Part shown: piece after piece, positions 509-22,147 of the stretch
Numbering within the stretch: the first letter of the stretch is position 1
Layout: every line of letters begins with the position of its first letter
NCBI GenBank assembly: GCA_029288485.1
Contig: JARIHC010000007.1
Location: 14,364 to 78,363 of the forward strand
Direction of reading: 5' to 3'
DNA: 64,000 nucleotides
Source of the DNA: Candidatus Saccharimonadota bacterium
GTDB taxonomy: Bacteria > Patescibacteriota > Saccharimonadia > Saccharimonadales > UBA4665
The notes under the pieces: model-generated
The model's input: the letters and a program-made list of their open reading frames with translations, nothing else
Told to the model about the DNA's origin: nothing
The model's database searches: none
Position numbers and translations under genes: made by a program

Positions 509-1753
509 ATGGGCCATAAAAAACTTGTTTTAAGCGATGCCAGCTCAGGCTATCCAAGTTTCTTAAAGAAGGTTTCTAAACCGGCCAAAGAAAAATCATC
601 CAACGAGCCAGTCTTAATCAAGATGGACGGCGCCAAGGCCAAGGATCAGCTTGAGCGGCTAGTAAAGGCCAACCCGGGTCTGCAGTTGGTAGATAACTAT
701 GCTGAGCAGTATGCCGAACTGCTGCTCAGCAAGCACGCGCATCTTTACAGCGCCAATTACGATGTGCAGGTTGCCTCGATTGCCAAAATGCTTGAAGAGC
801 ATTATGGTAAAAAACCGGCCTGGCAGCTCGGGTCTTGGGTGTATTTCCCATGGAAAAATCAGTTAGTGCACGTACTAACCCAACACGATTTTGAAGATTT
901 ACGGACCATCCGCAACCGCGACTTGATAACTAAGGACGAGCAGCGCAAACTATTTGATTTTAAAGCGGCTTCTTTTGGTATGAGCGTGGGCAGCGCTGGA
1001 GCACTCGCCATGGCTATTAGCGGCATCTCGCGCCAAGTGAAGCTGGTTGACGGGGCAGTTATAAGCGGCTCTAACTTAAATCGTATATTAACCGGTGTTT
1101 CCAGCGTTGGGCAGGGGAAGGCCACAGTTATTGGCCAGCAAATTTACGAAATGAATCCTTATTCTCAAATAGCGTATTTTGATAAAGCTATTTCCGGCAA
1201 CGTTGGCGAAATCCTTGATAAACCATGGGCTGTGGACATTGCAGTAGACGAGATAGATGACATAGAGATGAAAGTTCGCATTCGTTACGAGGCTCGCCAG
1301 CGCAAAATCCCTGTTATTATGGCTACTGAATTAGGCGATACCGTTATGCTCGATGTCGAGCGGTTCGACCAAGAACCTAATCGGCCACTGTTCCATGATA
1401 TGGTTCCGGGTGTCGAAAAACTGCTTGATCAGCCGCTGGAAAACTACCGCGAGTGGACCAAACACGCGATGCGGATCATCGATCCTTCCAATATGACCGT
1501 AAAAATGCAAAAATCCCTGCTTAAAATTGGTACGACAATAGTCACCCATCCGCAACTAGGTTCCACTGTTATGATGACTGGCGGCGTGTTAGCTTTTGCT
1601 GCCAAGAACATTGCTCTAGGGCAGCCAATCAAGTCCGGACGTTATGTTATTTCGCTAGAAAAAGAACTATTAAGCGATCATCAAAGCCGCCGCTACCGCA
1701 GAACTCATAAAAAACACACCAAAGTGCTGCACCGAGCTGTTAATTCGATGTAA
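509..1753 (+). CDS. ThiF/E1-like adenylyltransferase-fold protein (resembles the N-terminal half of Rv1355c-type proteins)
   Basis: Rossmann-like 'FGMSVGSAGALAMAISG' followed by 'KLVDGAVISGSNLNR', typical of the ThiF/MoeB/HesA family. 414 aa. Confidence 0.55.
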   Translation: MGHKKLVLSDASSGYPSFLKKVSKPAKEKSSNEPVLIKMDGAKAKDQLERLVKANPGLQLVDNYAEQYAELLLSKHAHLYSANYDVQVASIAKMLEEHYGKKPAWQLGSWVYFPWKNQLVHVLTQHDFEDLRTIRNRDLITKDEQRKLFDFKAASFGMSVGSAGALAMAISGISRQVKLVDGAVISGSNLNRILTGVSSVGQGKATVIGQQIYEMNPYSQIAYFDKAISGNVGEILDKPWAVDIAVDEIDDIEMKVRIRYEARQRKIPVIMATELGDTVMLDVERFDQEPNRPLFHDMVPGVEKLLDQPLENYREWTKHAMRIIDPSNMTVKMQKSLLKIGTTIVTHPQLGSTVMMTGGVLAFAAKNIALGQPIKSGRYVISLEKELLSDHQSRRYRRTHKKHTKVLHRAVNSM

Positions 1754-2714
1754 TCAATTCGTCGCTGCTAACCCGCGGCGAGTAGCGGTGCCGCGAACTG
1801 CCGCGGCCAATTCGTATCAAAGCAAGCACCCTTTTTTTAGTGCCTAGCATTTTTTCAATGTCATCGTGATAATTAGAAGCCTCCACTACGGCTGCCGATG
1901 TAGCCTGGGCCAAACCAAGTTCGGCTACTTCCAGACTGACGCGCAAATATGCGCGGCCAACTTCAAACCAATATTCAGCTAAGTCGCCGTCACCAAGTAT
2001 TAGCACCACTGCGCTAGCTGACTCCCAGCGTTTGCGTTCTAGGTTAGCCTCGCTAGCAACACCTAGCCCTGAGCGTACTAACCACGGCTGCACCCAAGCT
2101 AGCCAAAATGGGATATATAAACTACTTACGGTTATGCCGCGTTTTTTTCGCGACCATGGCGCCACCAGGTATTGGCTAAGTTCTTTGCGAAAATTAGGAT
2201 TACTTAATGCCAAACCAATGCCTTTACTTGTAAGCTCGGCTATTTTATCGATCAAGCTGCGATCAGTTGACACTCGTGTCTCCACTCCGCTTCCTACGCC
2301 AGCTGCTTCAATTTTGCTTATAACGCTACGATTAATCTCAGCAGATTTATAAATGCTTCGATCACTATGCCGGACTGCCAATAACTTGACGTAACGCTTA
2401 GAATCTACCGGCGGCTTAGCATGCTTGCCAACGATGATGCTCGCCTGGTTATGGCCGTTTTTTATTTTTTGCACCTGAAGCCCTCGACTCTCGGCAGCTA
2501 TTTTTATAGCTTCCGAGAAAATACCTAGACTAATGGCAGTTTGGCGACCAGTAGGGTCGCCATCGTCCAAAACATAGCGTTTATTTAACTGTACTTTTAT
2601 AGTCTGGCCGTCTGTAGATACCTGCCAAGGTTGGGTATTGTGTACCGAAGGCGCTAAGCGCGCTATGTTGATTATCTCAGCCAGTTGTTCGTGGATGTCG
2701 TCAAGCATATTCAT
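1740..2714 (-). CDS. nitroreductase-fold FMN oxidoreductase (Acg/SagB-like, two-lobed)
   Basis: N-terminal 'APSVHNTQPW' nitroreductase signature. At 324 aa the size fits Acg-type proteins. Convergent with the E1-like gene and overlaps it by 14 nt. Confidence 0.55.
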   Translation of the reverse strand: MNMLDDIHEQLAEIINIARLAPSVHNTQPWQVSTDGQTIKVQLNKRYVLDDGDPTGRQTAISLGIFSEAIKIAAESRGLQVQKIKNGHNQASIIVGKHAKPPVDSKRYVKLLAVRHSDRSIYKSAEINRSVISKIEAAGVGSGVETRVSTDRSLIDKIAELTSKGIGLALSNPNFRKELSQYLVAPWSRKKRGITVSSLYIPFWLAWVQPWLVRSGLGVASEANLERKRWESASAVVLILGDGDLAEYWFEVGRAYLRVSLEVAELGLAQATSAAVVEASNYHDDIEKMLGTKKRVLALIRIGRGSSRHRYSPRVSSDELITSN

Positions 2715-5419: not shown

Positions 5420-7582
5420 ATGCTTGAGATATCGGTTCTTATAACGGCTTGCATCTTGAATGGTCTCTTGGGGCTGGTGGTTTACCTTAAGAACCCCGAG
5501 AGCGCTACCAATAAGCTGTTTTTTGCTTTAACTGGTAGCTTTGTAGCCTGGTCCCTGGTTAATTACGCCTCTCTGCACCCGTTTTTGCTACCCCAGTTAG
5601 ATTGGATTCGTCTAGTTCTGTTTGCTGCTTCGCTTCTCTGTTTGCTGGTTTTTTTGACTTTTACGGCTTTCCCAGATGTTAAGTTAGCTGCCAGATACCA
5701 CCGAAGAGCGCTCCTGGCCACCTATCTAACAGCGGTGGTTATGATGTTGACCCTCACACCTTTTATTTTTAAATCATTAAGCTATTCCCATGGGCAGGCT
5801 AGCCCAGTGCCAGCCCCAGGAATTGGCCTATTTCTATTGCAATCTGTTGGTTTGCTAGGCGCCGGCATATTTATCATCATCCGTAAGCATCACTCCTCTC
5901 GAGACCGCAAGGTTAAGGAACAGTTACGTTTAGTATTGCTAGGGGTGGCAGGCACCTTCTTGCTAATAGTAAGCGCCAATCTGTTATTGGTGGTTATATT
6001 CAACGTTACTGCCTTGGTGTCCTTCGGTCCGGCGTTTACGCTGGTATTTAGCGCTGCTTTCGCCTACGCCATCATCCGGCACAAACTGTTCGACATTAAA
6101 GCAGCTATAGCCCGATCTGTTAGCTATCTGTTAATAGTTGGCACTATGACCATTGTTTACGGCGTGGCTCTCTTCGGTGTAATCGACATCCTATTCCAGG
6201 GGTCAAGTAATCAAAACCTAAGGCAAATTTTATCTGTTTTACTAATAACTCCTCTAGTGCTTAGCTTTCAGGCTATTCGGCGGTTCTTTGACCGCCTTAC
6301 TAATCGCCTGTTTTACAGAGAGAGTTATGATACCCAAGAAGTGCTCGACGAAGTGGGCAAAATTGTCACCGCTGAGATTGAGCTGCACCGTATTCTTAAC
6401 GACACCCGAAAAGTGTTAACTGCCTCTCTCAAGAGCTCGTTTATTGAATTTATATTGTTCAAGAACGGTAAACCGTACTTCGAGGCCCACACTCACAAAA
6501 TTATTAGCCAGAACATCTTAGCTATAGGGGCGGATATTGCCCAGCAAGAGAAGGATTTGCTAGTAACTGACGACTTTTCTAATAAGGGGCCGCTTCAGAA
6601 CCGTCTTGGCGAGGCTGGCGTATCTCTGAGTTTGCGCCTAAAAACCCGCGAACAACTGGTGGGCTATATTATCTTCGGTGCTAAGAAGGGCGGAGACGCC
6701 TATAACGCTCAAGACCGCAAACTGTTGCTTATCTTGTCAAATGAGCTGGCAGTAGCTGTTCAAAATGCCCTCCGCTTCGAAGAAATCCAGAACTTTAACC
6801 TTACCCTGCAGGCTAAAGTCGATGAAGCTACCAGAAAACTCCGTACTGCTAACGAAAAACTAAGAGAAATGGATGAAACCAAAGATGACTTCATCAGTAT
6901 GGCCTCCCATCAGCTCAGAACACCGCTTACAAGCGTAAAAGGCTATATATCAATGGTTTTAGAGGGTGATGCAGGTAAAGTTAACGAGAAGCAGCGAGAA
7001 ATGCTTGGGCAGGCCTTTTTTAGCTCTCAGAGGATGGTTTATCTGATAGCTGACCTCTTGAATGTGTCGCGCCTTAAGACGGGCAAATTTATTATTGAGC
7101 CAGCACCGGTAGATCTGGCAGAAATAGTTAAAGAAGAACTGAGCCAACTAGAGGAGACAGCTGCTTCCCGTTCTCTGACTCTCTCTTATGACAAGCCCAA
7201 AAACTTCCCTCAACTGATGCTTGATGAAACGAAGACTCGCCAGGTGATCATGAACTTTGTAGATAACGCCATCTATTACACTCCTTCTGGCGGCCATATA
7301 GCGGTTCATCTGTTAGACAATAAAACCACTGTGGAACTAAAGGTGGAGGACGACGGTATAGGGGTGCCCAAGAGTGAGCAGCCGCATCTGTTTACGAAGT
7401 TCTACAGGGCTGGCAATGCCCGTAAAGCCCGTCCAGATGGCACTGGGCTGGGACTATTTATGGCCAAGAAGGTGGTAGTAGCCCAAGGCGGTTCCTTGAT
7501 TTTTGATAGCCAAGAAGGCAAGGGCAGTACCTTTGGGTTTACCTTCTCTAAGAGCAAATTAGCCGCAAAGCAGAAAACATAA
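5420..7582 (+). CDS. sensor histidine kinase with a multi-TM N-terminal domain
   Basis: About 7 hydrophobic helices, then a GAF-like region, a coiled coil, H-box 'SHQLRTPLTS', and N/G boxes 'DNAIYYTP' and 'DDGIGV...GTGLGL'. No response regulator gene is adjacent. Confidence 0.85.
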   Translation: MLEISVLITACILNGLLGLVVYLKNPESATNKLFFALTGSFVAWSLVNYASLHPFLLPQLDWIRLVLFAASLLCLLVFLTFTAFPDVKLAARYHRRALLATYLTAVVMMLTLTPFIFKSLSYSHGQASPVPAPGIGLFLLQSVGLLGAGIFIIIRKHHSSRDRKVKEQLRLVLLGVAGTFLLIVSANLLLVVIFNVTALVSFGPAFTLVFSAAFAYAIIRHKLFDIKAAIARSVSYLLIVGTMTIVYGVALFGVIDILFQGSSNQNLRQILSVLLITPLVLSFQAIRRFFDRLTNRLFYRESYDTQEVLDEVGKIVTAEIELHRILNDTRKVLTASLKSSFIEFILFKNGKPYFEAHTHKIISQNILAIGADIAQQEKDLLVTDDFSNKGPLQNRLGEAGVSLSLRLKTREQLVGYIIFGAKKGGDAYNAQDRKLLLILSNELAVAVQNALRFEEIQNFNLTLQAKVDEATRKLRTANEKLREMDETKDDFISMASHQLRTPLTSVKGYISMVLEGDAGKVNEKQREMLGQAFFSSQRMVYLIADLLNVSRLKTGKFIIEPAPVDLAEIVKEELSQLEETAASRSLTLSYDKPKNFPQLMLDETKTRQVIMNFVDNAIYYTPSGGHIAVHLLDNKTTVELKVEDDGIGVPKSEQPHLFTKFYRAGNARKARPDGTGLGLFMAKKVVVAQGGSLIFDSQEGKGSTFGFTFSKSKLAAKQKT

Positions 7583-7591
7583 GCAATAATA

Positions 7592-7620
7592 TTGACAAAG
7601 CGTAACACTTATGATAGTAT
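7592..7620 (+). promoter_or_regulatory. candidate sigma70-type promoter of leader 1
   Basis: TTGACA (7592-7597), a 17-nt spacer, then TAGTAT (7615-7620). Same layout as the promoter of leader 2. Confidence 0.45.
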
Positions 7621-7706
7621 TAGAACATCCTCGCCTCATGGGCGTCATGGGTGGAGAACCTTCCGGTGGCTAGCAAGTGGCAGTCGGAATCCAGGTGGAT
7701 CGGGGA

Positions 7707-7720
7707 GCAACTTTACAATC
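7707..7720 (+). repeat. conserved leader motif GCAACTTTACAATC (copy 1)
   Basis: Identical 14-mer at 11867-11880. A diverged copy, GCATTTTTACAACC, is at 10585-10598. Confidence 0.7.
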
Positions 7721-7769
7721 AGGCAAGAGTTGGAAAATTGTTTAGTTTGTCGGTTTTAAAAATAAAAAT

Positions 7770-7791
7770 AGCGCTGTTTTCGGCGCTTTTT
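7770..7791 (+). terminator. rho-independent terminator-like hairpin closing leader 1
   Basis: AGCGCTG-tttt-CGGCGCT stem (7 bp, one G:T) followed by TTTTT. Confidence 0.5.
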
Positions 7792-7807
7792 ACATTTAAA
7801 ACGCAAG

Positions 7808-7830
7808 CTAGATAGTCATGGGTCTTTAAG
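7808..7830. repeat. terminal inverted repeat, left, unit 1
   Basis: AGATAGTCATGGGTCTTTAAG is identical to 10623-10643 (21/21). Confidence 0.8.
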
Positions 7831-7882
7831 CCCGGTTGAGCAGTCTATTACAGATAACTCCCGGTTTTTTGCAACCCAACCA

Positions 7883-7889
7883 ACCGACT
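7883..7889. repeat. inner inverted repeat ACCGACT, unit 1 (partner AGTCGGT at 9327-9333)
   Basis: The same CCGACT/AGTCGG pair brackets the ORF in all three units. Confidence 0.55.
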
Positions 7890-8067
7890 AAATATGTTCT
7901 ATGAAATTGTCTTTCAGTCCTCTTTGGGCGGAATGAGCAGGTGACGTAAAAGTCGCCTTTTCGTTCTGCCCAGAGTGGGTTAAGTAAAAGAAGTAAAAAC
8001 GAAACCAAGTATCGGAAATGGATCCACCGATACTGTCAACCAAACGACCTCTGAGGAGGTGTCAAAA

Positions 8068-9267
8068 GTGATCCCGAAAATGACGAACCCCAAGATCCTG
8101 ATCGCCTTCCTGGTGGTCGCGGTCTTCGCGGTTTTCGCGTCTTCGGCGTCTGCGGAATGCGGGCCCGGATTCACGAACAAGAAGCAGTTGATTCACTACT
8201 ACCAGAACAATCCTGACGCTGCACATGGGTTCCGGGAAGAACTCCTGGCCCATCCGGCTACCGGTTACCAGGCCGACGAGACTGTCGTCAACTGGCTCCG
8301 GAGTCCGGAACAGCGGGTGTTCAATGCGCCGTCTGGCTATCACCTGACGTCGAACACCTATTGCCCAGGAGGCCCCGGCCATTACGCGCCATACAACGGT
8401 CTCTTGGACAACATGGGCGGCAGGCCGATGCTGTGGCACTGCGACAAGGACGGGAAGTGTATCCCGATCCTGAAGGGTTACTGCATGAATTTCGTGTGCG
8501 GTCCCCCGGTCCATAAACACCCCAAGAAGTGCAAGTGCCGGAAGCCCAAGAAGCCGAAGTGCAAGTGCCACCACAAGAAGCATCCCAAGCCAAAGTGCTC
8601 TACCAAGAGTCCCGGTGGCGGTGGCGGTAACTGCAATACGCAGGTGGTGACGGTTACGCCGAAACAGGAATGTGAAGCGAACAACCACAGCGGCACCAAT
8701 TGTCAGCAGGTCACGGTCACGGTTGTGGCTAATTGCAGCAATGTCTCGATGGAAAATTCGGGCAACGTCAATCAAGGCGGTAACTGCAATAACGGAGGCA
8801 CGGAAACCTGCGTGGGGCAGAGCAACTGCAACACGGAAACTCCTCCGCCTCCCTGTGGCTGCAAACCGGAAGAACCGGAAGTACCCAAAAAACCGGAACA
8901 GCCGGTGGTCGAGTGGAAGCGCATTCAGGAGGTTCACCTCAAAGAGTCAACCGAATTGTGCGTGACCGTTACTCCGACTAGCGTCGTTGGCGAAGTTCAG
9001 TTCGCAGTGGTGGACGGAAAACGCAGCAATGGCGGTAAAGGCGTCTACAACGCCGGCACCAACAAGTATTGCGTGATCTACACCGCTCCGACCGAGGAAC
9101 CCGCACACGTGTGCCAGGAAGAATGGATTTCCGCCAAACTTCCTCCGGGAACGAAGTGCGATGTTGCACACGTGGCAGTTTTCTGCAACAACGGGGCTGA
9201 AACGGTCAAAGGCTCGATGGAAATTCCCGTCACTGATGCCGAAGGCAAAGGTGAAATCGTCTGGTAA
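8068..9267 (+). CDS. secreted Cys/His/Lys-rich protein, cassette cargo family member 1
   Basis: GAGGAGGTG Shine-Dalgarno, 6 nt, then GTG at 8068. Signal peptide '...ILIAFLVVAVFAVFASSASA'. Basic tract 'HKHPKKCKCRKPKKPKCKCHHKKHPKPKC'. N-C-N/Q repeats. The C-terminal domain is alignable to the other two cargo proteins. Confidence 0.75.
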   Translation: MIPKMTNPKILIAFLVVAVFAVFASSASAECGPGFTNKKQLIHYYQNNPDAAHGFREELLAHPATGYQADETVVNWLRSPEQRVFNAPSGYHLTSNTYCPGGPGHYAPYNGLLDNMGGRPMLWHCDKDGKCIPILKGYCMNFVCGPPVHKHPKKCKCRKPKKPKCKCHHKKHPKPKCSTKSPGGGGGNCNTQVVTVTPKQECEANNHSGTNCQQVTVTVVANCSNVSMENSGNVNQGGNCNNGGTETCVGQSNCNTETPPPPCGCKPEEPEVPKKPEQPVVEWKRIQEVHLKESTELCVTVTPTSVVGEVQFAVVDGKRSNGGKGVYNAGTNKYCVIYTAPTEEPAHVCQEEWISAKLPPGTKCDVAHVAVFCNNGAETVKGSMEIPVTDAEGKGEIVW

Positions 9268-9337
9268 CAGACAGTTAGGAGAAATAGACGAAATCATTCA
9301 GCTATAAGCTGATAAGAACATAAGTAAGTCGGTGAGA

Positions 9338-9435
9338 AGCGCTGTCGCGCGAAGTTGCGCGACAGCGCTACCACTGGCTGCTCGAGTAGAGAACATTTTT
9401 TGTCCCCGTGACATTAAATAGTTATCCTCGAGCAG
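9338..9435 (+). terminator. paired stem-loop module downstream of cargo 1 (hairpin A 9338-9369, hairpin B arms 9378-9386 and 9427-9435)
   Basis: Hairpin A: AGCGCTGTCGCGC-gaagtt-GCGCGACAGCGCT, a 13-bp perfect stem. Hairpin B: CTGCTCGAG...CTCGAGCAG, followed by TCTTTTA. Homologous modules follow cargo 2 and cargo 3. Confidence 0.45.
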
Positions 9436-9466
9436 TCTTTTACCCCTTATATTGAAGCTATTGAAG

Positions 9467-9482
9467 CCCAATGACTATCTAG
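9467..9482. repeat. terminal inverted repeat, right, unit 1 (decayed)
   Basis: CCCAATGACTATCTAG. Preceded by a 9-bp tandem duplication, TATTGAAGC x2, at 9450-9467. Confidence 0.65.
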
Positions 9483-9537
9483 TTTGCCTCACACCAACCA
9501 TTAATTTTAAGTCAATATTTTTGTAAAGGAGAATACT

Positions 9538-10212
9538 ATGAAGGTAAAAACTATAGTTCTTTCTGCTGCTACTGCCGCTATTATTCCGGCATTTAGCATT
9601 GCTGCTCCCGTAGCTGCTGACAGCCCGGGCGCTATTGGCGGTGGTGATATCTACCGCGTTAAAAACATAACCCAAAACACTGCTTTTGCCGACTCTACTA
9701 ACGCCAACGCCTGTGACGAGCTGCAGTATAAAGTGCTTTTGCACAACACTGGCTTCGGTGCTGCTAATGACATTACTATTAGCGCCACTACGTCTAGCGT
9801 TTCTACTGCTACTGTCAACTATGACGGCGATGGCCCCCAGAGCGTGTCTGACACGGCTACAGTTAACCTGAGCTCTGCTCAGAATATCGCTTACGAAAGT
9901 GGTTCTACGCAGCTTCTAGACAGCAAGAGCAACGTTGTTAAGTCACTTCCTGATGGTGTGACTGGTGCCGGCGTAAATGCTGGCGACCTTGACGGTTCTA
10001 CCGCTGAGTTCGTTGCTTTCAAAGCCAAAGTTAACTGCCCGACTAAGCCTCCGGTAACGCCTCCGAGCACGCCGCAGACTCCGGGTGTAGCTGGTCCTAC
10101 TACTCTGGTTAACACCGGTCCTGGTAGTGCTATAGCGGCTTTCGTAGCTGCTACGATTGCTGGTGCTTTCGGTTACCGCAAGTACCTAAGCCGCAAACTG
10201 AGCCGTCAGTAA
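9538..10212 (+). CDS. cell-surface protein with signal peptide and LPXTG-like (LVNTG) sorting signal
   Basis: N-terminal 'AATAAIIPAFSIAAPVAA'. C-terminal 'LVNTG', a hydrophobic stretch 'SAIAAFVAATIAGAFG', then a basic tail 'YRKYLSRKLSRQ'. A Pro-rich linker precedes the motif. Confidence 0.7.
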   Translation: MKVKTIVLSAATAAIIPAFSIAAPVAADSPGAIGGGDIYRVKNITQNTAFADSTNANACDELQYKVLLHNTGFGAANDITISATTSSVSTATVNYDGDGPQSVSDTATVNLSSAQNIAYESGSTQLLDSKSNVVKSLPDGVTGAGVNAGDLDGSTAEFVAFKAKVNCPTKPPVTPPSTPQTPGVAGPTTLVNTGPGSAIAAFVAATIAGAFGYRKYLSRKLSRQ

Positions 10213-10342
10213 GTGTGACAAACGTGCCCCTATCCCTTGTGGATAAGCACTAGCGCGAAATCGGTTTTTGTGCTAAGCTTGAGTTACGTTCAAGAGCACA
10301 AGACTGACCGCTCGGAAAACAAACACCTCACAGATCTTTTAG

Positions 10343-10379
10343 AAAATCCCCCTCTGGTGGAGAGGGGGATTTTTATTTT
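10343..10379 (+). terminator. rho-independent terminator
   Basis: TCCCCCTCT-ggtgg-AGAGGGGGA stem followed by TTTTTATTTT. Confidence 0.8.
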
Positions 10380-10436
10380 GGCCTCTGTTATGGTAAGATT
10401 TTACGGTTGTCAGGCGGCCACTTTTGCCCTTTTTGG

Positions 10437-10511
10437 GGCCCCATCGTCTAACGGCTAGGACACCAGGTTTTCATCCTGGCAATAGGGGTTCGATTCCCCT
10501 TGGGGTCACCA
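10437..10511 (+). tRNA. tRNA-Glu (anticodon UUC), CCA encoded
   Basis: Folded by hand. Acceptor GGCCCCA/TGGGGTC, D arm GTCT/GGAC, anticodon stem CCAGG/CCTGG with loop TTTTCAT, T arm GGGG-TTCGATT-CCCC, discriminator A, then CCA. Confidence 0.9.
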
Positions 10512-10521
10512 GTACCGCTTA

Positions 10522-10550
10522 TTGACAATTATTATAATTTATGATAAAAT
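10522..10550 (+). promoter_or_regulatory. candidate sigma70-type promoter of leader 2
   Basis: TTGACA (10522-10527), a 17-nt spacer, then TAAAAT (10545-10550). Confidence 0.45.
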
Positions 10551-10584
10551 GTTAGTATTCTTACACCTATCGGGAGGTGAAGAT

Positions 10585-10598
10585 GCATTTTTACAACC
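10585..10598 (+). repeat. conserved leader motif, diverged copy GCATTTTTACAACC
   Basis: Aligns with GCAACTTTACAATC of leaders 1 and 3. Preceded in all three by (A/G)TCG(G/A)GG(A/T)G. Confidence 0.55.
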
Positions 10599-10604
10599 CA
10601 CTAC

Positions 10605-10622
10605 GTTAATCTACAGATTAAC
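10605..10622 (+). repeat. perfect 8-bp hairpin GTTAATCT-ac-AGATTAAC abutting TIR-L of unit 2
   Basis: Read directly. A related GGTTAA...TTAACC hairpin (11885-11905) abuts TIR-L of unit 3. Both contain GTTAATCT. Confidence 0.6.
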
Positions 10623-10643
10623 AGATAGTCATGGGTCTTTAAG
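10623..10643. repeat. terminal inverted repeat, left, unit 2
   Basis: AGATAGTCATGGGTCTTTAAG. The next ~12 nt, (C/T)CCGGTT(T)GAGC, are also shared with unit 1. Confidence 0.8.
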
Positions 10644-10727
10644 TCCGGTTTGAGCTTTTTGTAAGTTCCCGGCCTAAAGTCCATTACCGACTATAAAAAC
10701 TACATACTTTTTGTGACTACAATTACC

Positions 10728-10782
10728 AGGTAAAGCAGCAAAGACGGGAAGCAAACTTCTTGCCTTTTGTGCTGCTTTACCT
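10728..10782 (+). promoter_or_regulatory. long 5'-UTR stem-loop of cargo 2
   Basis: AGGTAAAGCAGCA (10728-10740) pairs perfectly with TGCTGCTTTACCT (10770-10782), a 13-bp stem. An inner GAAG-caaa-CTTC hairpin lies inside. No T-tract follows. Confidence 0.5.
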
Positions 10783-10814
10783 AGACGTAAACCACAAAAA
10801 GAGAGGTGAACAGC

Positions 10815-11624
10815 GTGAGATTTGCAAAGATCTCAGCAATCATGATCGCCGCTTTGGCGATTGCCGCAGTTTGTGCGATCTCGGCGTCGGCTCGTCCCTA
10901 TGGAATTACCTGCGGACACAAGTCGTGCGGCACGCATGCGAAGCATCACAAGCGGCACCACAAAAGACACCACAACCGGTTCCATGGATGTCGGCATCAT
11001 CGCCCGTGCGTTACCCCAGAGCCGCCGATATGCCGCACCTTGGACAATGGCAGCTATTCCGCTGGCCGTTGCATGCCGGGCAAGATTCCGTCTTGCGCGG
11101 ATTGCGGTTTGCCACCTTGCTACATGGCCCAGCCGGTAGGGTGTGGAACGGCCTACTGCAACATTGGATATGCACCGAACACCCCATACCCGGGTTGTGA
11201 ACCTGTCTGCTACGACTGCGGAATCAACCCATGTGCATTTACCCCTAACGGGTGCCAAGGGTCGACGGAAGAACCATTTGAAGTTAAAGATCTGGAAGTT
11301 TATCAGATCGAAGGCGAAAAGGTGACTCCTGCCATCTGGGGAAGCGCGGAAGTGCTTGTACCAATTGGAACGGAAATGACCATTACGTTTGTTGCCAAAT
11401 ATGGCACTTTCGAATCCAGGGTCTTCTCTGGTTCCAAGGCGGACCCCAGTAGGGTGTACGACAAATACGAACCGCCGTGTTCAAAAGACATGCCGGCTGA
11501 CGGGTTTGATGAAGCGTGGGTAGTGGTTTATGACCGCGCCAACAAAATCTCTGCCGAATCCGAACACGTCAAATTCAACATCGAAGAACCGGAAAACGTG
11601 CACGTCGTGCATCCGTTGGGCTGA
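10815..11624 (+). CDS. secreted Cys/His-rich protein, cassette cargo family member 2
   Basis: GAGGTG, 6 nt, then GTG at 10815. The first 27 nt are near-identical to cargo 3. Signal peptide 'VRFAKISAIMIAALAIAAVCAISASA'. 'HAKHHKRHHKRHHNRFHGCRHH' tract. Many Cys-Pro motifs. C-terminal 'EAWVVVYDRANKISAESEHVKFNIEEPE'. Confidence 0.8.
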   Translation: MRFAKISAIMIAALAIAAVCAISASARPYGITCGHKSCGTHAKHHKRHHKRHHNRFHGCRHHRPCVTPEPPICRTLDNGSYSAGRCMPGKIPSCADCGLPPCYMAQPVGCGTAYCNIGYAPNTPYPGCEPVCYDCGINPCAFTPNGCQGSTEEPFEVKDLEVYQIEGEKVTPAIWGSAEVLVPIGTEMTITFVAKYGTFESRVFSGSKADPSRVYDKYEPPCSKDMPADGFDEAWVVVYDRANKISAESEHVKFNIEEPENVHVVHPLG

Positions 11625-11643
11625 AGTTCATAGTCGGTAAGGG

Positions 11644-11731
11644 GCGCTGTTCGCGCAAACTTTGCGCGAACAGCGCTGCCCCCGGCTGCTCGAGAGAGAA
11701 TTTAGCGCGAAACGCGCCCCCTCTCGAGCAG
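11644..11731 (+). terminator. paired stem-loop module downstream of cargo 2 (hairpin A 11644-11676, hairpin B arms 11686-11696 and 11721-11731)
   Basis: Hairpin A: GCGCTGTTCGCGCAAA-c-TTTGCGCGAACAGCGC. Hairpin B: CTGCTCGAGAG...CTCTCGAGCAG (11-bp arms) with an inner GCGCG-aaa-CGCGC hairpin, followed by TCATTTA. Confidence 0.45.
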
Positions 11732-11741
11732 TCATTTACAC

Positions 11742-11760
11742 CTTAAAGACCAATGACTAT
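11742..11760. repeat. terminal inverted repeat, right, unit 2
   Basis: CTTAAAGACCAATGACTAT. Confidence 0.8.
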
Positions 11761-11761
11761 T

Positions 11762-11772
11762 TATTCATCAAG
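11762..11772 (+). repeat. 11-bp direct repeat TATTCATCAAG, copy 1
   Basis: Identical to 12792-12802. Lies immediately after TIR-R of unit 2. Confidence 0.75.
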
Positions 11773-11866
11773 CCAACGCCGTCAAGAGCTAAAAGACGTA
11801 AGCTGCTCCTAAAAGCTTTTCATGTTAGTATTTATACAACATCTCTCTTGAGATTGTCGAGGTGGC

Positions 11867-11880
11867 GCAACTTTACAATC
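11867..11880 (+). repeat. conserved leader motif GCAACTTTACAATC (copy 3)
   Basis: Identical to 7707-7720. Confidence 0.7.
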
Positions 11881-11987
11881 CAGAGGTTAATCTTATAGGT
11901 TAACCGGTAGTCATTGGTCTTTAAGGCCATTCAGCCGACTACATATTTCCTCTTTAAATTGGTCAATACCGAAACGAGGTGAGAAAC

Positions 11988-12632
11988 GTGAGATTCGCAA
12001 AGGTCTCAGCAATTCTGACTGTCGCCTTCTTGCTTATTGCGGTGCAGGCCTCTGCGCGCAAGCATGAAAAGCTGCACCACTCTAAATGTGAGCATCACAA
12101 GTGCCATCTATTGCCGAAGAAAAAACATCGTTGCAAACGAAGCAAGAACCACAAGAAGCAAAGGTGCCATCGGCGCAAAGGGCGATATGCACCTAAGCTG
12201 CCCGGCGCTGTGGTAGAAGAAGACTCGCGCGTAAAAACCAATCCGGCTCCAACGCCAGAAAAGCTCGAAATCAAAAATCTGCAAATTTTTTGGTCACAAT
12301 CGAAACCTTCGATGATCGAAAAAGCTTGCGCGGATGTATATGGCGCTGTCCCCGACGCGATAGCTGTCAGTTTTGAAGCTAAAGAAAGTGTTTTTGAAAA
12401 GTCCTATTACGCGGGAGATCCCAAGGAAAACTGGCCCGAGCTTTACTGCGCTGACTATGTTCAGCCTCCTATGTGCCCGGAAGATCCAGATCCATGGTGC
12501 GAAGCATTTATTAGTGATGAAGTTTGGGCGATCGTTTTTGACGAAAGCACGGGCTTGACTGCTGAATCGGAACGCGTAACGTTTGAAATTGAAGAATTCG
12601 AAGGTGAAGAAGAACTAGAAGGGGTCGAATAA
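11988..12632 (+). CDS. secreted His/Lys/Cys-rich protein, cassette cargo family member 3
   Basis: GAGGTG, 6 nt, then GTG at 11988. Signal peptide 'VRFAKVSAILTVAFLLIAVQASA'. Basic tract 'KHEKLHHSKCEHHKCHLLPKKKHRCKRSKNHKKQRCHRRKG'. C-terminal 'EVWAIVFDESTGLTAESERVTFEIEEFE' followed by an acidic tail. Confidence 0.8.
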   Translation: MRFAKVSAILTVAFLLIAVQASARKHEKLHHSKCEHHKCHLLPKKKHRCKRSKNHKKQRCHRRKGRYAPKLPGAVVEEDSRVKTNPAPTPEKLEIKNLQIFWSQSKPSMIEKACADVYGAVPDAIAVSFEAKESVFEKSYYAGDPKENWPELYCADYVQPPMCPEDPDPWCEAFISDEVWAIVFDESTGLTAESERVTFEIEEFEGEEELEGVE

Positions 12633-12661
12633 AGTTAGCAAATACGAGTAAGTCGGTTGAG

Positions 12662-12754
12662 GTGCGTCTGGCGCGAAACTGTGCTAGGCGCACTAATACC
12701 GGCGACCGCTCGGTTTAAGAGTGCTCATTATGAGTACTCCCTAGAGCAGTCGCC
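12662..12754 (+). terminator. paired stem-loop module downstream of cargo 3 (hairpin A 12662-12693, hairpin B 12701-12754)
   Basis: Hairpin A: GTGCGTCTGGCGC-gaaact-GTGCTAGGCGCAC, 13 bp, of which three are G:T pairs on the + strand only. Hairpin B: GGCGAC.GCTC...GAGCAGTCGCC, followed by GTTTTT. Confidence 0.45.
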
Positions 12755-12790
12755 GTTTTTCCCAACAGTTTGAAGATCGGTGACTGTTCT

Positions 12791-13432
12791 CTATTCATCA
12801 AGTTTAAGTGGCTTGGCGATTGATGGCGGCAAAAGCCGCACAAAGCAAACTGCCATTAAGCCGATAGCGAAGCCGCTAACTATGTCAGCCGGCGTATGAA
12901 CACCCAAGTACAGTCGCGACCACGCAACTAGCACAATCCACAAAACAGAAACCCAGCGCCAAGCCTGGGGCAGAATAAACCACAGCGTTAAAGCTAGAGC
13001 AGTAGCTGCCAACATGTGGCCAGAAGGAAAGCCGGGACCGGTCTCTACTGCACGAACATGCAGGTTGTGGTTATGCAAAATAGCAACAGGCCGAGCTTCG
13101 TTAATAATATATTTTACGGCGAAACCGGCAACTATTGCGCCACCTGCCGTAAAGAAAAAACGCCACGATAAACGGTATTTTTTGAATAGTAAAGGTATAA
13201 GCACGCAAGCAGCAATAGGATAGCCAGCCCCTAAGCCTTCTGTAATTAATAGGGCGGGTGTCTTTAAGTCGTTTGATTGGTTGTTAATGGCATGAAACAA
13301 ATTGGCCTGCAAACCTCCAAGCGGATTTTTAGTGGCAACTAACATGCTGGCAATAAGTAATAATAAACCTATTACAAAGGTCACTATCAGGGCGATTTTA
13401 TTTTTGTTAGCAGGTTCTTGTTTGTCTGACAT
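12791..13432 (-). CDS. PAP2-family phosphatase (undecaprenyl-diphosphatase-like)
   Basis: PAP2 motifs 'NEARP', 'PSGH' and 'SRLYLGVHTPAD'. Multi-TM. Confidence 0.8.
   Translation of the reverse strand: MSDKQEPANKNKIALIVTFVIGLLLLIASMLVATKNPLGGLQANLFHAINNQSNDLKTPALLITEGLGAGYPIAACVLIPLLFKKYRLSWRFFFTAGGAIVAGFAVKYIINEARPVAILHNHNLHVRAVETGPGFPSGHMLAATALALTLWFILPQAWRWVSVLWIVLVAWSRLYLGVHTPADIVSGFAIGLMAVCFVRLLPPSIAKPLKLDE
12792..12802 (+). repeat. 11-bp direct repeat TATTCATCAAG, copy 2 (overlaps the last codons of the PAP2 gene)
   Basis: Identical to 11762-11772. The reverse complement encodes ...L-D-E-stop of the minus-strand PAP2 ORF. Confidence 0.75.
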
Positions 13433-13510
13433 CGTCGTTATTTTATCATAGCAAACTTGTGCATAGCTGAACCTGCGCGCTATAGTATTAAGGTAATAGC
13501 TAGAGGTGGG

Positions 13511-21734: not shown

Positions 21735-22147
21735 GGGGCTGAATTTAAGCTCGACGTTGGACTTTATCGGTTACATCAGCAGGTCGCTTGTCAGCGTTAT
21801 AGGCAAACATTTTAGATGCAACTTCTAAAATTCGCGGTGCTGTAGCACTTGTTAAGGACGGAGCCAAGGCTCTTGCCGAGACATTCACTGTGCGGCAGCT
21901 CGCACCTCAAGTAGCTTAATTAACTACTTGAATGCCTGAGACGACGCCAGATAGTTGAAAGGCATTTCATATCTTCTGGACGCTCATGCTGCATTGTCCT
22001 AGCAGCATGCTAAGACTTTGGACTCTGGGGAACGGTTTTTTGGTCATTTAACGGCCGGACCTCGAGAATTTTTAAATGACCTATGCCTGTAGACGATTAA
22101 TCAAGATAAACTAGCGGACGTGGGGGCAGTACCCACCAGCTCCACCA
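21735..22147 (+). ncRNA. ssrA: tmRNA (SsrA)
   Basis: 5' GGGGCUG pairs with 3' CAGCUCC-A-CCA, including a G3:U wobble. A T-arm-like GTGGG/CCCAC precedes the acceptor strand. An internal ORF begins GCA AAC (as in E. coli) and ends ...CAA GTA GCT TAA at 21917-21919. Confidence 0.85.

What the first reader, a model, noticed from the sequence alone, without database searches (positions are those of the whole stretch)
8068..12632. Cargo genes encode a family of secreted Cys/His/Lys-rich proteins with a shared C-terminal domain
All three cargo proteins begin with a cleavable-looking signal peptide ending A-S-A or S-A-S-A.

Each then carries a strongly basic His/Lys/Cys tract:
- unit 1: 'HKHPKKCKCRKPKKPKCKCHHKKHPKPKC'
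- unit 2: 'HAKHHKRHHKRHHNRFHGCRHH'
- unit 3: 'KHEKLHHSKCEHHKCHLLPKKKHRCKRSKNHKKQRCHRRKG'

They end in an alignable ~130-aa beta-rich domain. Compare 'FEVKDLEVYQ...ITFVAKYGTFES...EAWVVVYDRANKISAESEHVKFNIEEPE' with 'LEIKNLQIFW...VSFEAKESVFEK...EVWAIVFDESTGLTAESERVTFEIEEFE'. Unit 1 is more distant.

Unit 1 adds an N-terminal globular region and N-C-N/Q repeats ('GNCNTQVVTVT', 'TNCQQVTVTVV', 'GNCNNGG', 'SNCNTE'). Unit 2 adds a Cys-Pro-rich module.

I do not recognise the family. His/Cys-rich basic tracts suggest metal binding or polyanion (cell-wall or teichoic acid) binding. In an episymbiont such proteins would be candidates for host-surface interaction, but that is speculation.
Basis: partly seen in the sequence, partly recalled or inferred. 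Interest (0 to 1): 0.7.

Follow-up and report, generated by a model that had tools for sequence, protein, structure and literature searches.

The report
Secreted polycationic Ig-like proteins, Saccharimonadales
Three neighbouring genes of an uncultivated Saccharimonadales bacterium encode exported proteins of an unannotated family that joins a strongly basic Lys/His/Cys tract to an acidic immunoglobulin-like domain, which makes them plausible but untested cell-surface or host-attachment proteins.

Summary
Three real genes (8068-9267, 10815-11624, 11988-12632) each encode a signal peptide with an A-x-A site and a 22-41 aa Lys/Arg/His/Cys tract. These tracts are far outside the range of every other ORF in the window. 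Each protein ends in a ~120 aa domain that is an acidic Ig-like beta-sandwich in the two proteins modelled (units 1 and 2).

Units 2 and 3 are clear paralogues. Unit 1 is linked to them only by profile comparison through an intermediate domain type.

Nothing matches in Pfam, NCBIfam, PHROGs, PADLOC or PDB sequences. Relatives are very rare: 9, 24 and 25 hits in billions of proteins. Those that carry a name are hypothetical proteins of Candidatus Saccharimonadales.

The family is modular. N-domains, Cys-rich spacers and C-domain types are shuffled between members. Positive tract charge and an acidic C-domain are conserved, but His and Cys content is not.

The genes sit in a syntenic surface-protein locus: sensor kinase, unit 1, LVNTG wall-anchored protein, then a variable slot. 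Each gene is bracketed by a conserved inverted 18-nt box and 3' hairpins.

Most likely they are electrostatically tethered, displayed surface or adhesin-like proteins. Metal binding is a weaker rival. Function is not tested.

The parts
7592..7795 (+). Promoter-like site (TTGACA-17-TAGTAT) and a conserved ~175-nt leader or small RNA that ends in an intrinsic terminator (7770-7795), upstream of unit 1.
   Evidence: Promoter and terminator scan. The element is nearly identical over about 230 nt in L001 and L002, and is present with an inserted hairpin in L008/L016. No Rfam family matches at E<=10.
7813..7830 (+). 5' box of unit 1 (TAGTCATGGGTCTTTAAG).
   Evidence: Five copies occur in the window against 0.1 expected by chance. 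The box is 18/18 identical upstream of unit-1 homologues in six other loci (five distinct genomes).
8068..9267 (+). Unit 1 gene (399 aa). Signal peptide 8068-8154, N-terminal globular domain 8155-8508, basic tract HKHPKKCKC...KPKC 8512-8598, conserved Cys/Asn/Gly/Thr core and Pro-rich linker 8599-8904, Ig-like C-domain (type a) 8905-9264.
   Evidence: AlphaFold gives pLDDT about 95 for the N-domain, about 90 for the C-domain and below 50 for residues 157-268. Foldseek returns only Ig-like hits.
9326..9477 (+). 3' structured region of unit 1: two hairpins (9326-9438) and the inverted 3' box (9460-9477).
   Evidence: The stems differ between genomes in a compensatory way.
9538..10212 (+). It encodes a 224-aa protein with a signal peptide and a C-terminal LVNTG motif, hydrophobic helix and basic tail, which fits a sortase-type wall anchor. 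An intrinsic terminator lies at 10350-10380.
   Evidence: It has 247 homologues at E<=1e-3; the few that carry an organism name are Saccharimonadales or Saccharibacteria, and some are labelled TIGR01451 repeat or LPXTG protein. It follows the unit-1 homologue in all 8 loci examined.
10437..10511 (+). tRNA-Glu(UUC) gene between unit 1 (with the LVNTG gene) and unit 2.
10522..10805 (+). Unit 2 promoter-like site (TTGACA-17-TAAAAT, 10522-10550), 5' box (10626-10643) and a long leader hairpin (10728-10782).
10815..11624 (+). Unit 2 gene (269 aa). Signal peptide 10815-10892, His/Lys/Arg/Cys tract 10911-11009, variable Cys/Pro-rich module 11010-11270, acidic Ig-like C-domain 11271-11621.
   Evidence: AlphaFold models residues 159-267 as a beta-sandwich with pLDDT 70-95 and residues 28-154 with pLDDT below 50. 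Foldseek returns generic Ig-like hits only.
11632..11759 (+). 3' structured region of unit 2: two hairpins and the inverted 3' box (11742-11759).
11822..11925 (+). Unit 3 short leader (-10/start region 11822-11838, GCAACTTTACAATC 11866-11879) and 5' box (11908-11925).
11988..12632 (+). Unit 3 gene (214 aa). Signal peptide 11988-12056, basic tract 12060-12182, acidic Ig-like C-domain 12252-12629. It is a diverged tandem paralogue of unit 2.
   Evidence: The first 53 nt, including the RBS, are 79% identical to those of unit 2 (repeat family D2).
12651..12787 (+). 3' structured region of unit 3 (hairpins 12651-12751) and a degenerate 3' box (12770-12787).
5420..7582 (+). Sensor histidine kinase (multi-TM N-terminal region, HisKA, HATPase_c) immediately upstream. 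This position is conserved.
   Evidence: The kinase lies upstream of the unit-1 homologue in L001, L002, L017, L020 and the P0013 contig.

Best explanation
These are three genuine genes for Sec-exported, modular proteins of a small, unannotated superfamily that is restricted to Saccharimonadales, as far as the databases show.

**Architecture.** Every member is built on the same plan:
- a cleavable signal peptide;
- an optional N-terminal globular domain;
- a disordered polycationic tract with a net charge of +9 to +17, rich in Lys/Arg/His and often Cys or Pro;
- a variable Cys-rich or Pro-rich spacer;
- an acidic (pI 4-5) C-terminal domain, modelled as an Ig-like beta-sandwich in units 1 and 2.

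**Proposed mechanism (inferred, not shown).**
- After export the cationic tract sticks electrostatically to anionic envelope polymers such as teichoic-acid-like glycopolymers, anionic lipids or extracellular DNA. These may belong to the bacterium itself or to its host cell. His and Cys may add metal-bridged or pH-dependent binding.
- The acidic Ig-like domain is repelled from that surface and is displayed outward as the recognition or scaffold module.
- The genes form a co-regulated surface-protein locus. It sits beside a sensor kinase and an LVNTG wall-anchored protein.
- Domain types, and the contents of the second slot, are exchanged between lineages. That is the pattern expected for proteins at a host or environment interface.
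For: **Shown: real, exported, modular proteins**
- Conserved homologues exist for both families.
- The A-x-A signal-peptide architecture is conserved.
- AlphaFold models the C-domains as beta-sandwiches with pLDDT 70-95. Foldseek returns only Ig-like folds such as intimin D0, PKD, Big2 and antibody V domains.
- Homology among C-domain types a, b and the unit-2 type is supported at E=3e-9 and 8e-9, with clean reversed-sequence controls.

**Shown: charge pattern**
- Tract charge is conserved while His and Cys content is not. Slot-2 members of L016 and L017 have pure Lys/Pro tracts.
- Almost all C-domains examined are acidic: pI 4.1-5.2, with two exceptions at 6.1 and 6.9. The tracts are +9 to +17 in nearly all members.

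**Shown: genomic context**
- The order kinase, unit 1, LVNTG protein, variable slot, PAP2 or glycolysis genes recurs in most of the 8 loci.
- The inverted box pair brackets only genes of this superfamily.

**Analogy from the literature**
- Chlamydial OmcB has a signal peptide and an N-terminal basic domain that mediates heparan-sulfate binding and adhesion (PMC2229832).
- The lysine-rich repeats of mycobacterial HBHA bind heparin (PMC3293801).
Against: - No binding partner, localisation or expression was tested.
- No signal-peptide predictor was run.
- A dense basic tract immediately after a signal peptide is generally unfavourable for Sec export (general knowledge). Export efficiency or topology could therefore differ from what is assumed here.
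- The unit-2 family keeps a four-Cys skeleton (C-x4-C ... C-x5-10-C) and many His residues, which looks more specific than a plain charge patch.
- A few distant members lack the basic tract altogether: P0044, P0047, P0049 and P0051.
- The envelope chemistry of these uncultivated bacteria and of their hosts is unknown.
Confidence: 0.42

Rival explanations
1. The proteins bind extracellular metal. They would act as zincophore-like, metallothionein-like or Hpn-like proteins. The His/Cys tract would capture or buffer Zn, Ni or Cu outside the cell for a genome-reduced symbiont.
For: - The window's tracts contain C-K-C, H-x-H and HH motifs.
- The unit-2 family conserves four Cys and several His residues right after the signal peptide.
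- One relative carries a run of 16 His in 30 residues (P0052).
Against: - His (1-16) and Cys (0-4) per tract vary widely across the superfamily. Some members have Lys/Pro tracts with almost none of either.
- No metal transporter or metalloregulator lies in the conserved neighbourhood. A Fur-family gene lies about 6 kb away in the non-syntenic locus L018 only.
- The leaders match no known metal riboswitch.
- No metallothionein or Hpn family hit was found.
Confidence: 0.2
2. The proteins are structural partners of the LVNTG wall-anchored protein. Unit-1-type proteins, and perhaps unit 2 and 3, would assemble with it into a surface layer, fibre or stalk. The Cys-rich core would form disulfide cross-links and the Ig-like domains would mediate subunit contacts.
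For: - The unit-1 homologue and the LVNTG gene are adjacent in all 8 loci examined.
- No T-rich terminator lies between them in the window, so they are probably co-transcribed.
- The unit-1 Cys/Asn/Gly core has invariant Cys residues.
- The fold is Ig-like.
Against: - The three proteins have no sortase motif, and no sortase was found among the window ORFs checked.
- The LVNTG family is far more widespread (247 hits or more) than unit-1 relatives (24), so it does not depend on them.
- The Cys-rich core is modelled with low confidence.
Confidence: 0.15
3. The proteins are cationic effectors. The basic Cys-stabilised tract would act like a cationic antimicrobial peptide that permeabilises or remodels the host envelope. 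The acidic C-domain would act as a neutralising pro-domain until proteolytic release.
For: - The charge dipole is conserved: +9 to +17 for the tract against an acidic C-domain.
- The unit-2 and unit-3 tracts have four Cys that could form two disulfides.
- In composition the tracts resemble His-rich cationic peptides (own knowledge, not tested).
Against: - No conserved protease site or processing enzyme was identified.
- No immunity gene is evident.
- The tract lies in the middle of unit-1-type proteins, between folded domains.
- There is no amphipathic pattern; the tracts are Pro-rich and probably extended.
Confidence: 0.1
4. The genes are cargo of mobile or invertible DNA cassettes. The inverted boxes would be terminal repeats or recombination sites that move or flip the genes, for example in phase variation.
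For: - Inverted 18-28-nt repeats bracket each gene.
- The second slot holds different genes in different genomes, or is empty.
- A tRNA gene lies beside unit 2.
Against: - Synteny and orientation are the same in 8 of 8 loci.
- No transposase, integrase, invertase or reverse transcriptase was seen next to the locus.
- The box occurs nowhere else in the 64-kb window.
- The 3' hairpin stems vary in a compensatory way, which points to a transcript-level structure.
Confidence: 0.06

Closest known systems
Chlamydial OmcB (cysteine-rich outer membrane complex protein B)
   Same: OmcB has a signal peptide, a basic N-terminal domain that binds polyanionic glycans and mediates adhesion, high Cys content and beta-sandwich repeat domains after the basic region (PMC2229832; the fold of its DUF11 repeats is from own knowledge).
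   Different: - There is no sequence relationship. The three proteins and their families give no DUF11 or TIGR01451 hit.
- OmcB belongs to a diderm outer-membrane complex.
- Its basic region is about 26% basic, against 30-55% Lys+Arg (about 75% counting His and Cys) in the tracts here.
- It has several repeat domains rather than one.
Mycobacterial heparin-binding haemagglutinin (HBHA) and related Lys/Pro/Ala-rich adhesin tails
   Same: A disordered lysine-rich repeat tract mediates electrostatic binding to sulfated or anionic glycoconjugates (PMC3293801).
   Different: - The HBHA tract is C-terminal, and the protein has a coiled-coil body and no classical signal peptide (own knowledge).
- It has no His or Cys in the tract and no Ig-like domain.
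- There is no sequence similarity.
Bacterial Ig-like surface domains (Big, PKD, intimin D0, DUF11)
   Same: The C-domains of units 1 and 2 are predicted beta-sandwiches. Their best structural matches are intimin D00-D0, a FixG-related domain, PKD and Big2. A strand motif of the type VVVYDxxTxxxxESExVxFNI recalls the last strands of PKD and cadherin-like domains, and the weak hit P0054 is a four-repeat protein of that kind.
   Different: - No Pfam model reaches even E=0.1.
- The best Foldseek E-value against PDB is 0.011 for unit 2 and 2.8e-4 for unit 1, with TM-scores of 0.15-0.55.
- The domain is single, acidic and C-terminal, and it ends in a conserved tail (EPENVHxxHPxG, or PE-x-EHGG[FW]H).
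His/Cys-rich metal-binding proteins (metallothioneins, Helicobacter Hpn, histatins, histidine-rich glycoprotein)
   Same: The composition is similar: CxC and HxH motifs, and His-Lys-Arg tracts. This resemblance rests on own knowledge and on sequence inspection.
   Different: - No family hit was found.
- His and Cys are not conserved across relatives.
- The tracts are dominated by Lys and Pro.
- Hpn is cytoplasmic and metallothioneins are small, whereas these proteins are exported and multi-domain.

Membership tests
Sec (SPase I) secretory signal peptide | A positively charged n-region, a hydrophobic h-region of 10-15 residues, and small residues at -3 and -1 (A-x-A) before the cleavage site. 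| tested here: met
   By inspection and hydropathy the peptides read MIPKMTNPK-ILIAFLVVAVFAVFA-SSASA|E, MRFAK-ISAIMIAALAIAAVCAI-SASA|R and MRFAK-VSAILTVAFLLIAV-QASA|R. The A-S-A site is conserved in homologues. No SignalP-type predictor was run.
Lipoprotein (SPase II) signal | A lipobox [LVI][ASTVI][GAS]C with an invariant Cys at +1. | tested here: not met
   There is no lipobox. The Cys inside the unit-2 h-region (AAVC) is not conserved in homologues.
Sortase-anchored (LPXTG-type) surface protein | A C-terminal LPXTG-like motif followed by a hydrophobic helix and a basic tail. | tested here: not met
   The motif is absent from the three proteins. It is present only in the neighbouring 224-aa protein (LVNTG, helix, RKYLSRKLSRQ).
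DUF11 / TIGR01451 conserved repeat domain (OmcB-type) | A significant match to the PF01345 or TIGR01451 profile. | tested here: not met
   No Pfam or NCBIfam hit at E<=1 for the three proteins, and none at E<=0.1 for any of the 34 family members scanned.
Ig-like beta-sandwich fold | A two-sheet sandwich of 7-9 strands with structural matches to Ig-like domains. | tested here: met
   AlphaFold models 8 strands for unit 2 (residues 159-267, pLDDT 70-95) and a comparable domain for unit 1 (residues 283-392, pLDDT about 90). The top Foldseek hits are all Ig-like, but E-values are weak (0.011 and 2.8e-4).
Metallothionein / Hpn-type metal-binding proteins | A family profile match, or a conserved dense Cys or His cluster pattern across homologues. 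| tested here: not met
   No profile hit was found. Cys per tract ranges from 0 to 4 and His from 1 to 16 across relatives. Metal binding itself cannot be tested with these tools.
Integron gene cassette | A promoterless ORF followed by an attC site, in an array beside an intI integrase and attI. | tested here: not met
   Units 1 and 2 each have their own promoter-like site (and unit 3 a matching -10/start region), and all three have a leader. No integrase was annotated in the locus or in the syntenic loci.
Diversity-generating retroelement target gene | A variable repeat at the 3' end of the gene matched by a nearby template repeat, plus a reverse transcriptase. | tested here: not met
   No direct repeat longer than 53 nt was found in 7000-13500. 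No RT appears in the neighbourhood annotations.
Known RNA families for the leaders (riboswitches, sRNAs) | An Rfam covariance-model match. | tested here: not met
   At gathering thresholds only tRNA and tmRNA match in the window. No credible match at E<=10 lies in 7560-8080.

The most novel reading that the evidence does not exclude
The three genes are part of a dedicated, lineage-specific 'surface-variation locus' of Saccharimonadales.
- A fixed chromosomal site next to a sensor kinase carries expression cassettes with a common RNA architecture: a conserved leader, a 5' box that pairs with an inverted 3' box, and two 3' hairpins.
- Within and between these cassettes, modular polycationic Ig-like proteins are exchanged by recombination. 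N-domains, spacers and C-domains are all shuffled.
- The proteins mediate attachment to the host cell envelope.

This would join a new host-interaction protein family to a new cis-regulatory or processing RNA system in CPR bacteria.
Probability: 0.22. Interest if true: 0.72.

Novelty: new variant of a known kind. Interest (0 to 1): 0.47.

Why it matters
How ultrasmall CPR and Saccharibacteria episymbionts recognise and hold on to their hosts is largely unknown beyond type IV pili (for example PMC9894109 and PMC11623550, titles and abstracts only).

This locus offers a concrete, compact set of candidate envelope or host-interface proteins:
- They are exported, lineage-restricted and modular.
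- They carry a conserved charge dipole.
- They sit beside a sensor kinase and a wall-anchored protein.
- They are embedded in an unusually conserved non-coding framework.

If the function is confirmed, the family would add a new adhesin or tether family and possibly a new regulatory RNA arrangement. If not, it remains a small family of hypothetical secreted proteins in uncultivated soil or water bacteria.

Tried and rejected
**Protein family and structure searches**
- Pfam, NCBIfam, PHROGs and PADLOC scans of the three proteins and the LVNTG neighbour found nothing credible. The best hits had E>=0.02 and scored far below the curated cut-offs.
- Pfam scans of all 24 and 10 family members found nothing.
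- Profile searches of both families against PDB sequences gave 0 hits at E<=1.
- Foldseek of both models against PDB and BFVD returned only generic Ig-like folds. The confidently modelled unit-1 N-domain never surfaced in the top 50, so its fold is unassigned.

**RNA searches**
- Rfam at gathering thresholds and at E<=10 found no family for the leader.
- The leader's MFE z-score is only -1.3.
- MAFFT plus RNAalifold on twelve 3' regions gave no consensus structure because the alignment was poor. The hairpins were read by eye only.

**Collection scans**
- A metagenome scan with a 19-mer from the leader gave 11 stretches. Only one (L008/L016) was a true relative; the rest were chance matches in coding DNA.
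- The scan of genome contigs for the unit-2 family found a single genome among 185,579 species representatives.

**Context searches**
- A search for a response regulator, sortase or thiol-oxidoreductase among window ORFs found none.

**Hypotheses considered and rejected**
- Heme CXXCH sites: absent, and a CX4CH pattern is not conserved.
- A lipoprotein signal.
- An integron cassette.
- A DGR target gene.
- DNA-uptake sequences: the box is confined to this locus.
- Inversion-based phase variation: all 8 loci have the same orientation.

**Literature**
- Two searches for prior descriptions in Saccharibacteria papers found nothing relevant. The Cell 2023 Tn-seq paper contains none of the search terms.

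Full report
**1. What is in the sequence**

Between a sensor histidine kinase gene (5420-7582) and a convergent PAP2 phosphatase gene (12791-13432) lie four + strand genes and one tRNA:
- unit 1: longest ORF 8059-9267;
- tRNA-Glu at 10437-10511;
- unit 2: longest ORF 10806-11624;
- unit 3: longest ORF 11979-12632.

RBS spacing and public gene calls place the likely starts at 8068, 10815 and 11988. The public calls are P0010 (starts MIPKM) and P0034 (starts MRFAKV).

The basic tracts are not a trivial composition effect. The best 30-residue window holds 24, 22 and 23 His/Lys/Arg/Cys residues in units 1, 2 and 3. No other ORF of at least 100 aa in the 64-kb window exceeds 13.

**2. Export signals**

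Each protein starts with one or two basic residues, a 12-residue stretch with mean hydropathy 2.9-3.4, and then SSASA|E, ISASA|R or QASA|R.
- The A-S-A site is conserved at the same alignment column in relatives of both families.
- AlphaFold models the segment as a lone helix.
- There is no lipobox and no sortase motif.

I could not run SignalP, so cleavage is inferred from these classical features.

**3. Relationship among the three proteins**

Units 2 and 3 are paralogues.
- Full-length BLASTP gives E=6e-12.
- The C-domain alone gives E=6.8e-9 and 36.6 bits, against a maximum of 18.5 bits in 200 shuffles.
- Their RBS and signal-peptide DNA is still 79% identical.

Unit 1 shows no significant pairwise similarity to either. 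Its family, however, carries interchangeable C-terminal domains of at least four types.
- The window's type a and the unit-2-type domain both match type b, at E=2.9e-9 and 8.4e-9 and about 96% probability.
- Reversed-sequence controls give E=0.3-0.6.
- The direct comparison of type a with the unit-2 type gives E about 2e-3.

Independently, an exhaustive HMM search with the unit-2 family profile pulls out unit-1-like proteins of 331-454 aa through their C-termini.

Types c and d show no detectable similarity to the others.

**4. Known families**

Nothing was found.
- Pfam, NCBIfam, PHROGs and PADLOC give no credible hit for any protein or for any of 34 family members.
- Profiles of both families hit no PDB sequence at E<=1.

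**5. Distribution**

- The unit-2 protein has 9 relatives among 5.8 billion clustered proteins.
- Its family profile finds 25 representatives (E<=1e-3) among 1.84 billion.
- Unit 1 has 24 relatives.
- A pattern scan of one genome per species (185,579 species) found the unit-2 family in one genome, a Candidatus Saccharimonadales MAG.
- The only source names are 'hypothetical protein [Candidatus Saccharimonadales bacterium]'.
- Unit 3 has no relative closer than the unit-2 family.

**6. Architecture and structure**

Unit 2, AlphaFold with a 10-sequence alignment:
- signal helix;
- residues 28-154 at pLDDT below 50;
- an eight-strand sandwich over residues 159-267 at pLDDT 70-95.

Unit 1, AlphaFold with 24 sequences:
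- an alpha+beta N-domain (residues 31-150, pLDDT about 95);
- a low-confidence middle (residues 157-268);
- a beta-sandwich C-domain (residues 283-392, pLDDT about 90).

Foldseek finds only generic Ig-like folds: intimin D00-D0, a FixG-related domain, PKD, Big2, IPT and antibody V domains. E-values are weak, at 0.011 and 2.8e-4.

The unit-1 family alignment shows:
- at least three N-domain types;
- the basic tract;
- a conserved core, GGGGNCN..VTVTPKQECEANNHS..NQGGNCNNGGTETCVGQ, with invariant Cys residues;
- a Pro-rich linker;
- the variable C-domain.

In the unit-2 family the mature N-terminus (RP[HY]GIT..CGHxKC), four tract cysteines and the C-terminal tail (FNIEEPENVHxxHPxG) are conserved. 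The Cys/Pro-rich middle varies from about 0 to 90 residues. A related tail, PE-x-EHGG[FW]H, ends several unit-1-like proteins.

**7. What is conserved in the tract**

In about 55 relatives:
- the most basic 30-residue window has 9-16 Lys+Arg in nearly all;
- His ranges from 1 to 16 and Cys from 0 to 4;
- a few distant members lack the tract altogether.

Proteins that occupy the unit-2 position in two other genomes have Lys/Pro tracts such as KKLKPKAEKPEKPKRHKPKPKPRPK, with almost no His or Cys.

The C-domains are acidic in nearly all members (pI 4.1-5.2; net -2 to -23), while the tracts are +9 to +17 in nearly all. The conserved property is therefore a charge dipole, not a metal-ligand pattern.

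**8. Genomic context**

Most of the eight loci with a unit-1 homologue share one order:
1. 7TM sensor kinase;
2. unit-1 homologue;
3. an LVNTG protein of about 228 aa;
4. a variable slot;
5. PAP2 and/or pyruvate kinase, PGK and TIM.

L018 has a different neighbourhood but keeps the pair of unit-1 homologue and a following ORF.

The variable slot holds different contents in different genomes:

| Slot content | Where |
|---|---|
| Unit-2-type genes | window (two copies), L001, L002 |
| N-domain + Lys/Pro tract + type-b C-domain | L016 |
| N-domain + Lys/Pro tract + type-c C-domain | L017 |
| Nothing | L020, P0013 contig |
| An unrelated acidic protein | L019 |

The LVNTG protein belongs to a much larger family, for which every named member is a Saccharimonadales or Saccharibacteria protein. 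It has 247 hits, some labelled TIGR01451 repeat or LPXTG protein.

**9. Non-coding framework (outside the finding proper)**

The inverted box:
- Each gene of the superfamily, and nothing else, is bracketed by TAGTCATGGGTCTTTAAG upstream and its imperfect inverted copy downstream.
- The window has 5 copies against 0.1 expected by chance.
- The same arrangement occurs in L001, L002, L016, L017, L019 and L020.
- The 5' box is 18/18 identical in genomes whose unit-1 proteins are only 34-60% identical.

The 3' structures:
- Between the stop codon and the 3' box lie two hairpins. Their stems differ between genomes in a compensatory way.
- Two positions of the box pair also co-vary in the L002 unit-2 cassette.

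The leaders:
- Unit 1 is preceded by a strong promoter-like site, a ~175-nt sequence that is almost invariant across genomes, and an intrinsic terminator.
- This sequence matches no Rfam family.
- Units 2 and 3 have shorter related leaders.

Against DNA mobility:
- The locus orientation is the same in 8 of 8 loci.
- No recombinase genes were seen.
- The box is absent from the rest of the window.

A transcript-level role in processing, stability or attenuation seems more likely, but it is unresolved.

**10. Mechanism**

Shown: the genes are real, carry export signals, are modular, keep a conserved charge dipole, have an Ig-like C-domain, and sit in a conserved surface-protein neighbourhood within a shared cis framework.

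Inferred: after export the polycationic tract binds anionic envelope polymers, either the cell's own or the host's. The acidic Ig-like domain is displayed outward. Shuffling of modules reflects selection at an interface.

The best functional analogues are:
- the N-terminal basic domain of chlamydial OmcB, which mediates heparan-sulfate-dependent adhesion (PMC2229832);
- the lysine-rich repeats of HBHA (PMC3293801).

These are analogies, not homology.

Rival explanations, with my estimates:

| Explanation | Confidence |
|---|---|
| Electrostatic tether / displayed adhesin-like protein (main model) | about 0.4 |
| Extracellular metal capture | 0.2 |
| Structural partnership with the LVNTG protein | 0.15 |
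| Cationic effector with an anionic pro-domain | 0.1 |
| Mobile or invertible cassette cargo | about 0.06 |

**11. Verdict**

It is a new, narrowly distributed protein family built from known kinds of parts (signal peptide, polycationic tract, Ig-like domain). Its genomic packaging is unusual. Interest is moderate.

Noticed in passing
window 7592-7795 (also L001 6931-7150, L002 4173-4400, L008/L016): A promoter-like site, a ~175-nt sequence and an intrinsic terminator lie between the kinase gene and unit 1. The element is almost invariant across genomes whose flanking proteins have diverged. One variant carries an inserted hairpin. No Rfam match was found. It is a candidate new leader, attenuator or small RNA.
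   Followed up: partly
window 7813-7830, 9460-9477, 10626-10643, 11742-11759, 11908-11925, ~12770-12787: An 18-28-nt inverted box pair brackets each gene of this protein superfamily and occurs nowhere else in the window. It is conserved in six other loci (five distinct genomes). Two base-pair positions co-vary in one cassette lineage, and two mismatches are constant in the unit-1 pairs.
   Followed up: partly
window 9326-9438, 11632-11734, 12651-12751: Two conserved hairpins follow each stop codon. The first is closed by AGUCGG/CCGACU and the second is GACUGCUCGAG...CUCGAGCAGUC. Stem sequences differ between genomes in a compensatory way. No T-run follows, so they are not classical terminators.
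   Followed up: partly
window 9538-10212: A 224-aa protein with a signal peptide and a C-terminal LVNTG motif, helix and basic tail, which fits a sortase-type anchor with a non-canonical motif. It always follows the unit-1 homologue. Its family has 247 relatives at E<=1e-3; the few with an organism name are Saccharimonadales or Saccharibacteria. No sortase gene was found among the window ORFs checked.
   Followed up: partly
window 10437-10511: A tRNA-Glu(UUC) gene sits between the terminator of the LVNTG gene and the unit-2 promoter. The promoter-like TTGACA begins 11 nt after the tRNA.
   Followed up: no
window 8905-9264, 11271-11621, 12252-12629 and homologues: The charge dipole is conserved. 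The C-terminal domains have pI 4.1-5.2 in nearly all members, while the preceding tracts are +9 to +17. Unit 3 ends in a very acidic tail, EIEEFEGEEELEGVE.
   Followed up: yes
window 11583-11621 and C-termini of P0026, P0046, P0048, P0049: A conserved C-terminal tail follows the Ig-like domain. It reads EPENVHxxHPxG in the unit-2 family and PE-x-EHGG[FW]H in several unit-1-like proteins. Other types end in an aromatic residue (..IVW..ETF). Its function is unknown.
   Followed up: no
window 509-1753 and 1740-2714 (-); L001 1199-4759: A ThiF-family protein and a nitroreductase/TM1586-like protein lie upstream of the kinase. In L001 a 496-aa protein with no Pfam hit sits between them. The combination was not examined further.
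   Followed up: no
window 21735-22147: A tmRNA gene (Rfam RF00023, 69 bits). ARAGORN did not report it.
   Followed up: no
L017 1232-1600, L020 221-589, P0013 contig: In several related genomes two genes lie a few genes upstream of the kinase: a stand-alone 122-aa receiver-domain protein and an LPG_synthase_C (MprF-like) gene. Neither was seen in the part of the window that was checked.
   Followed up: no
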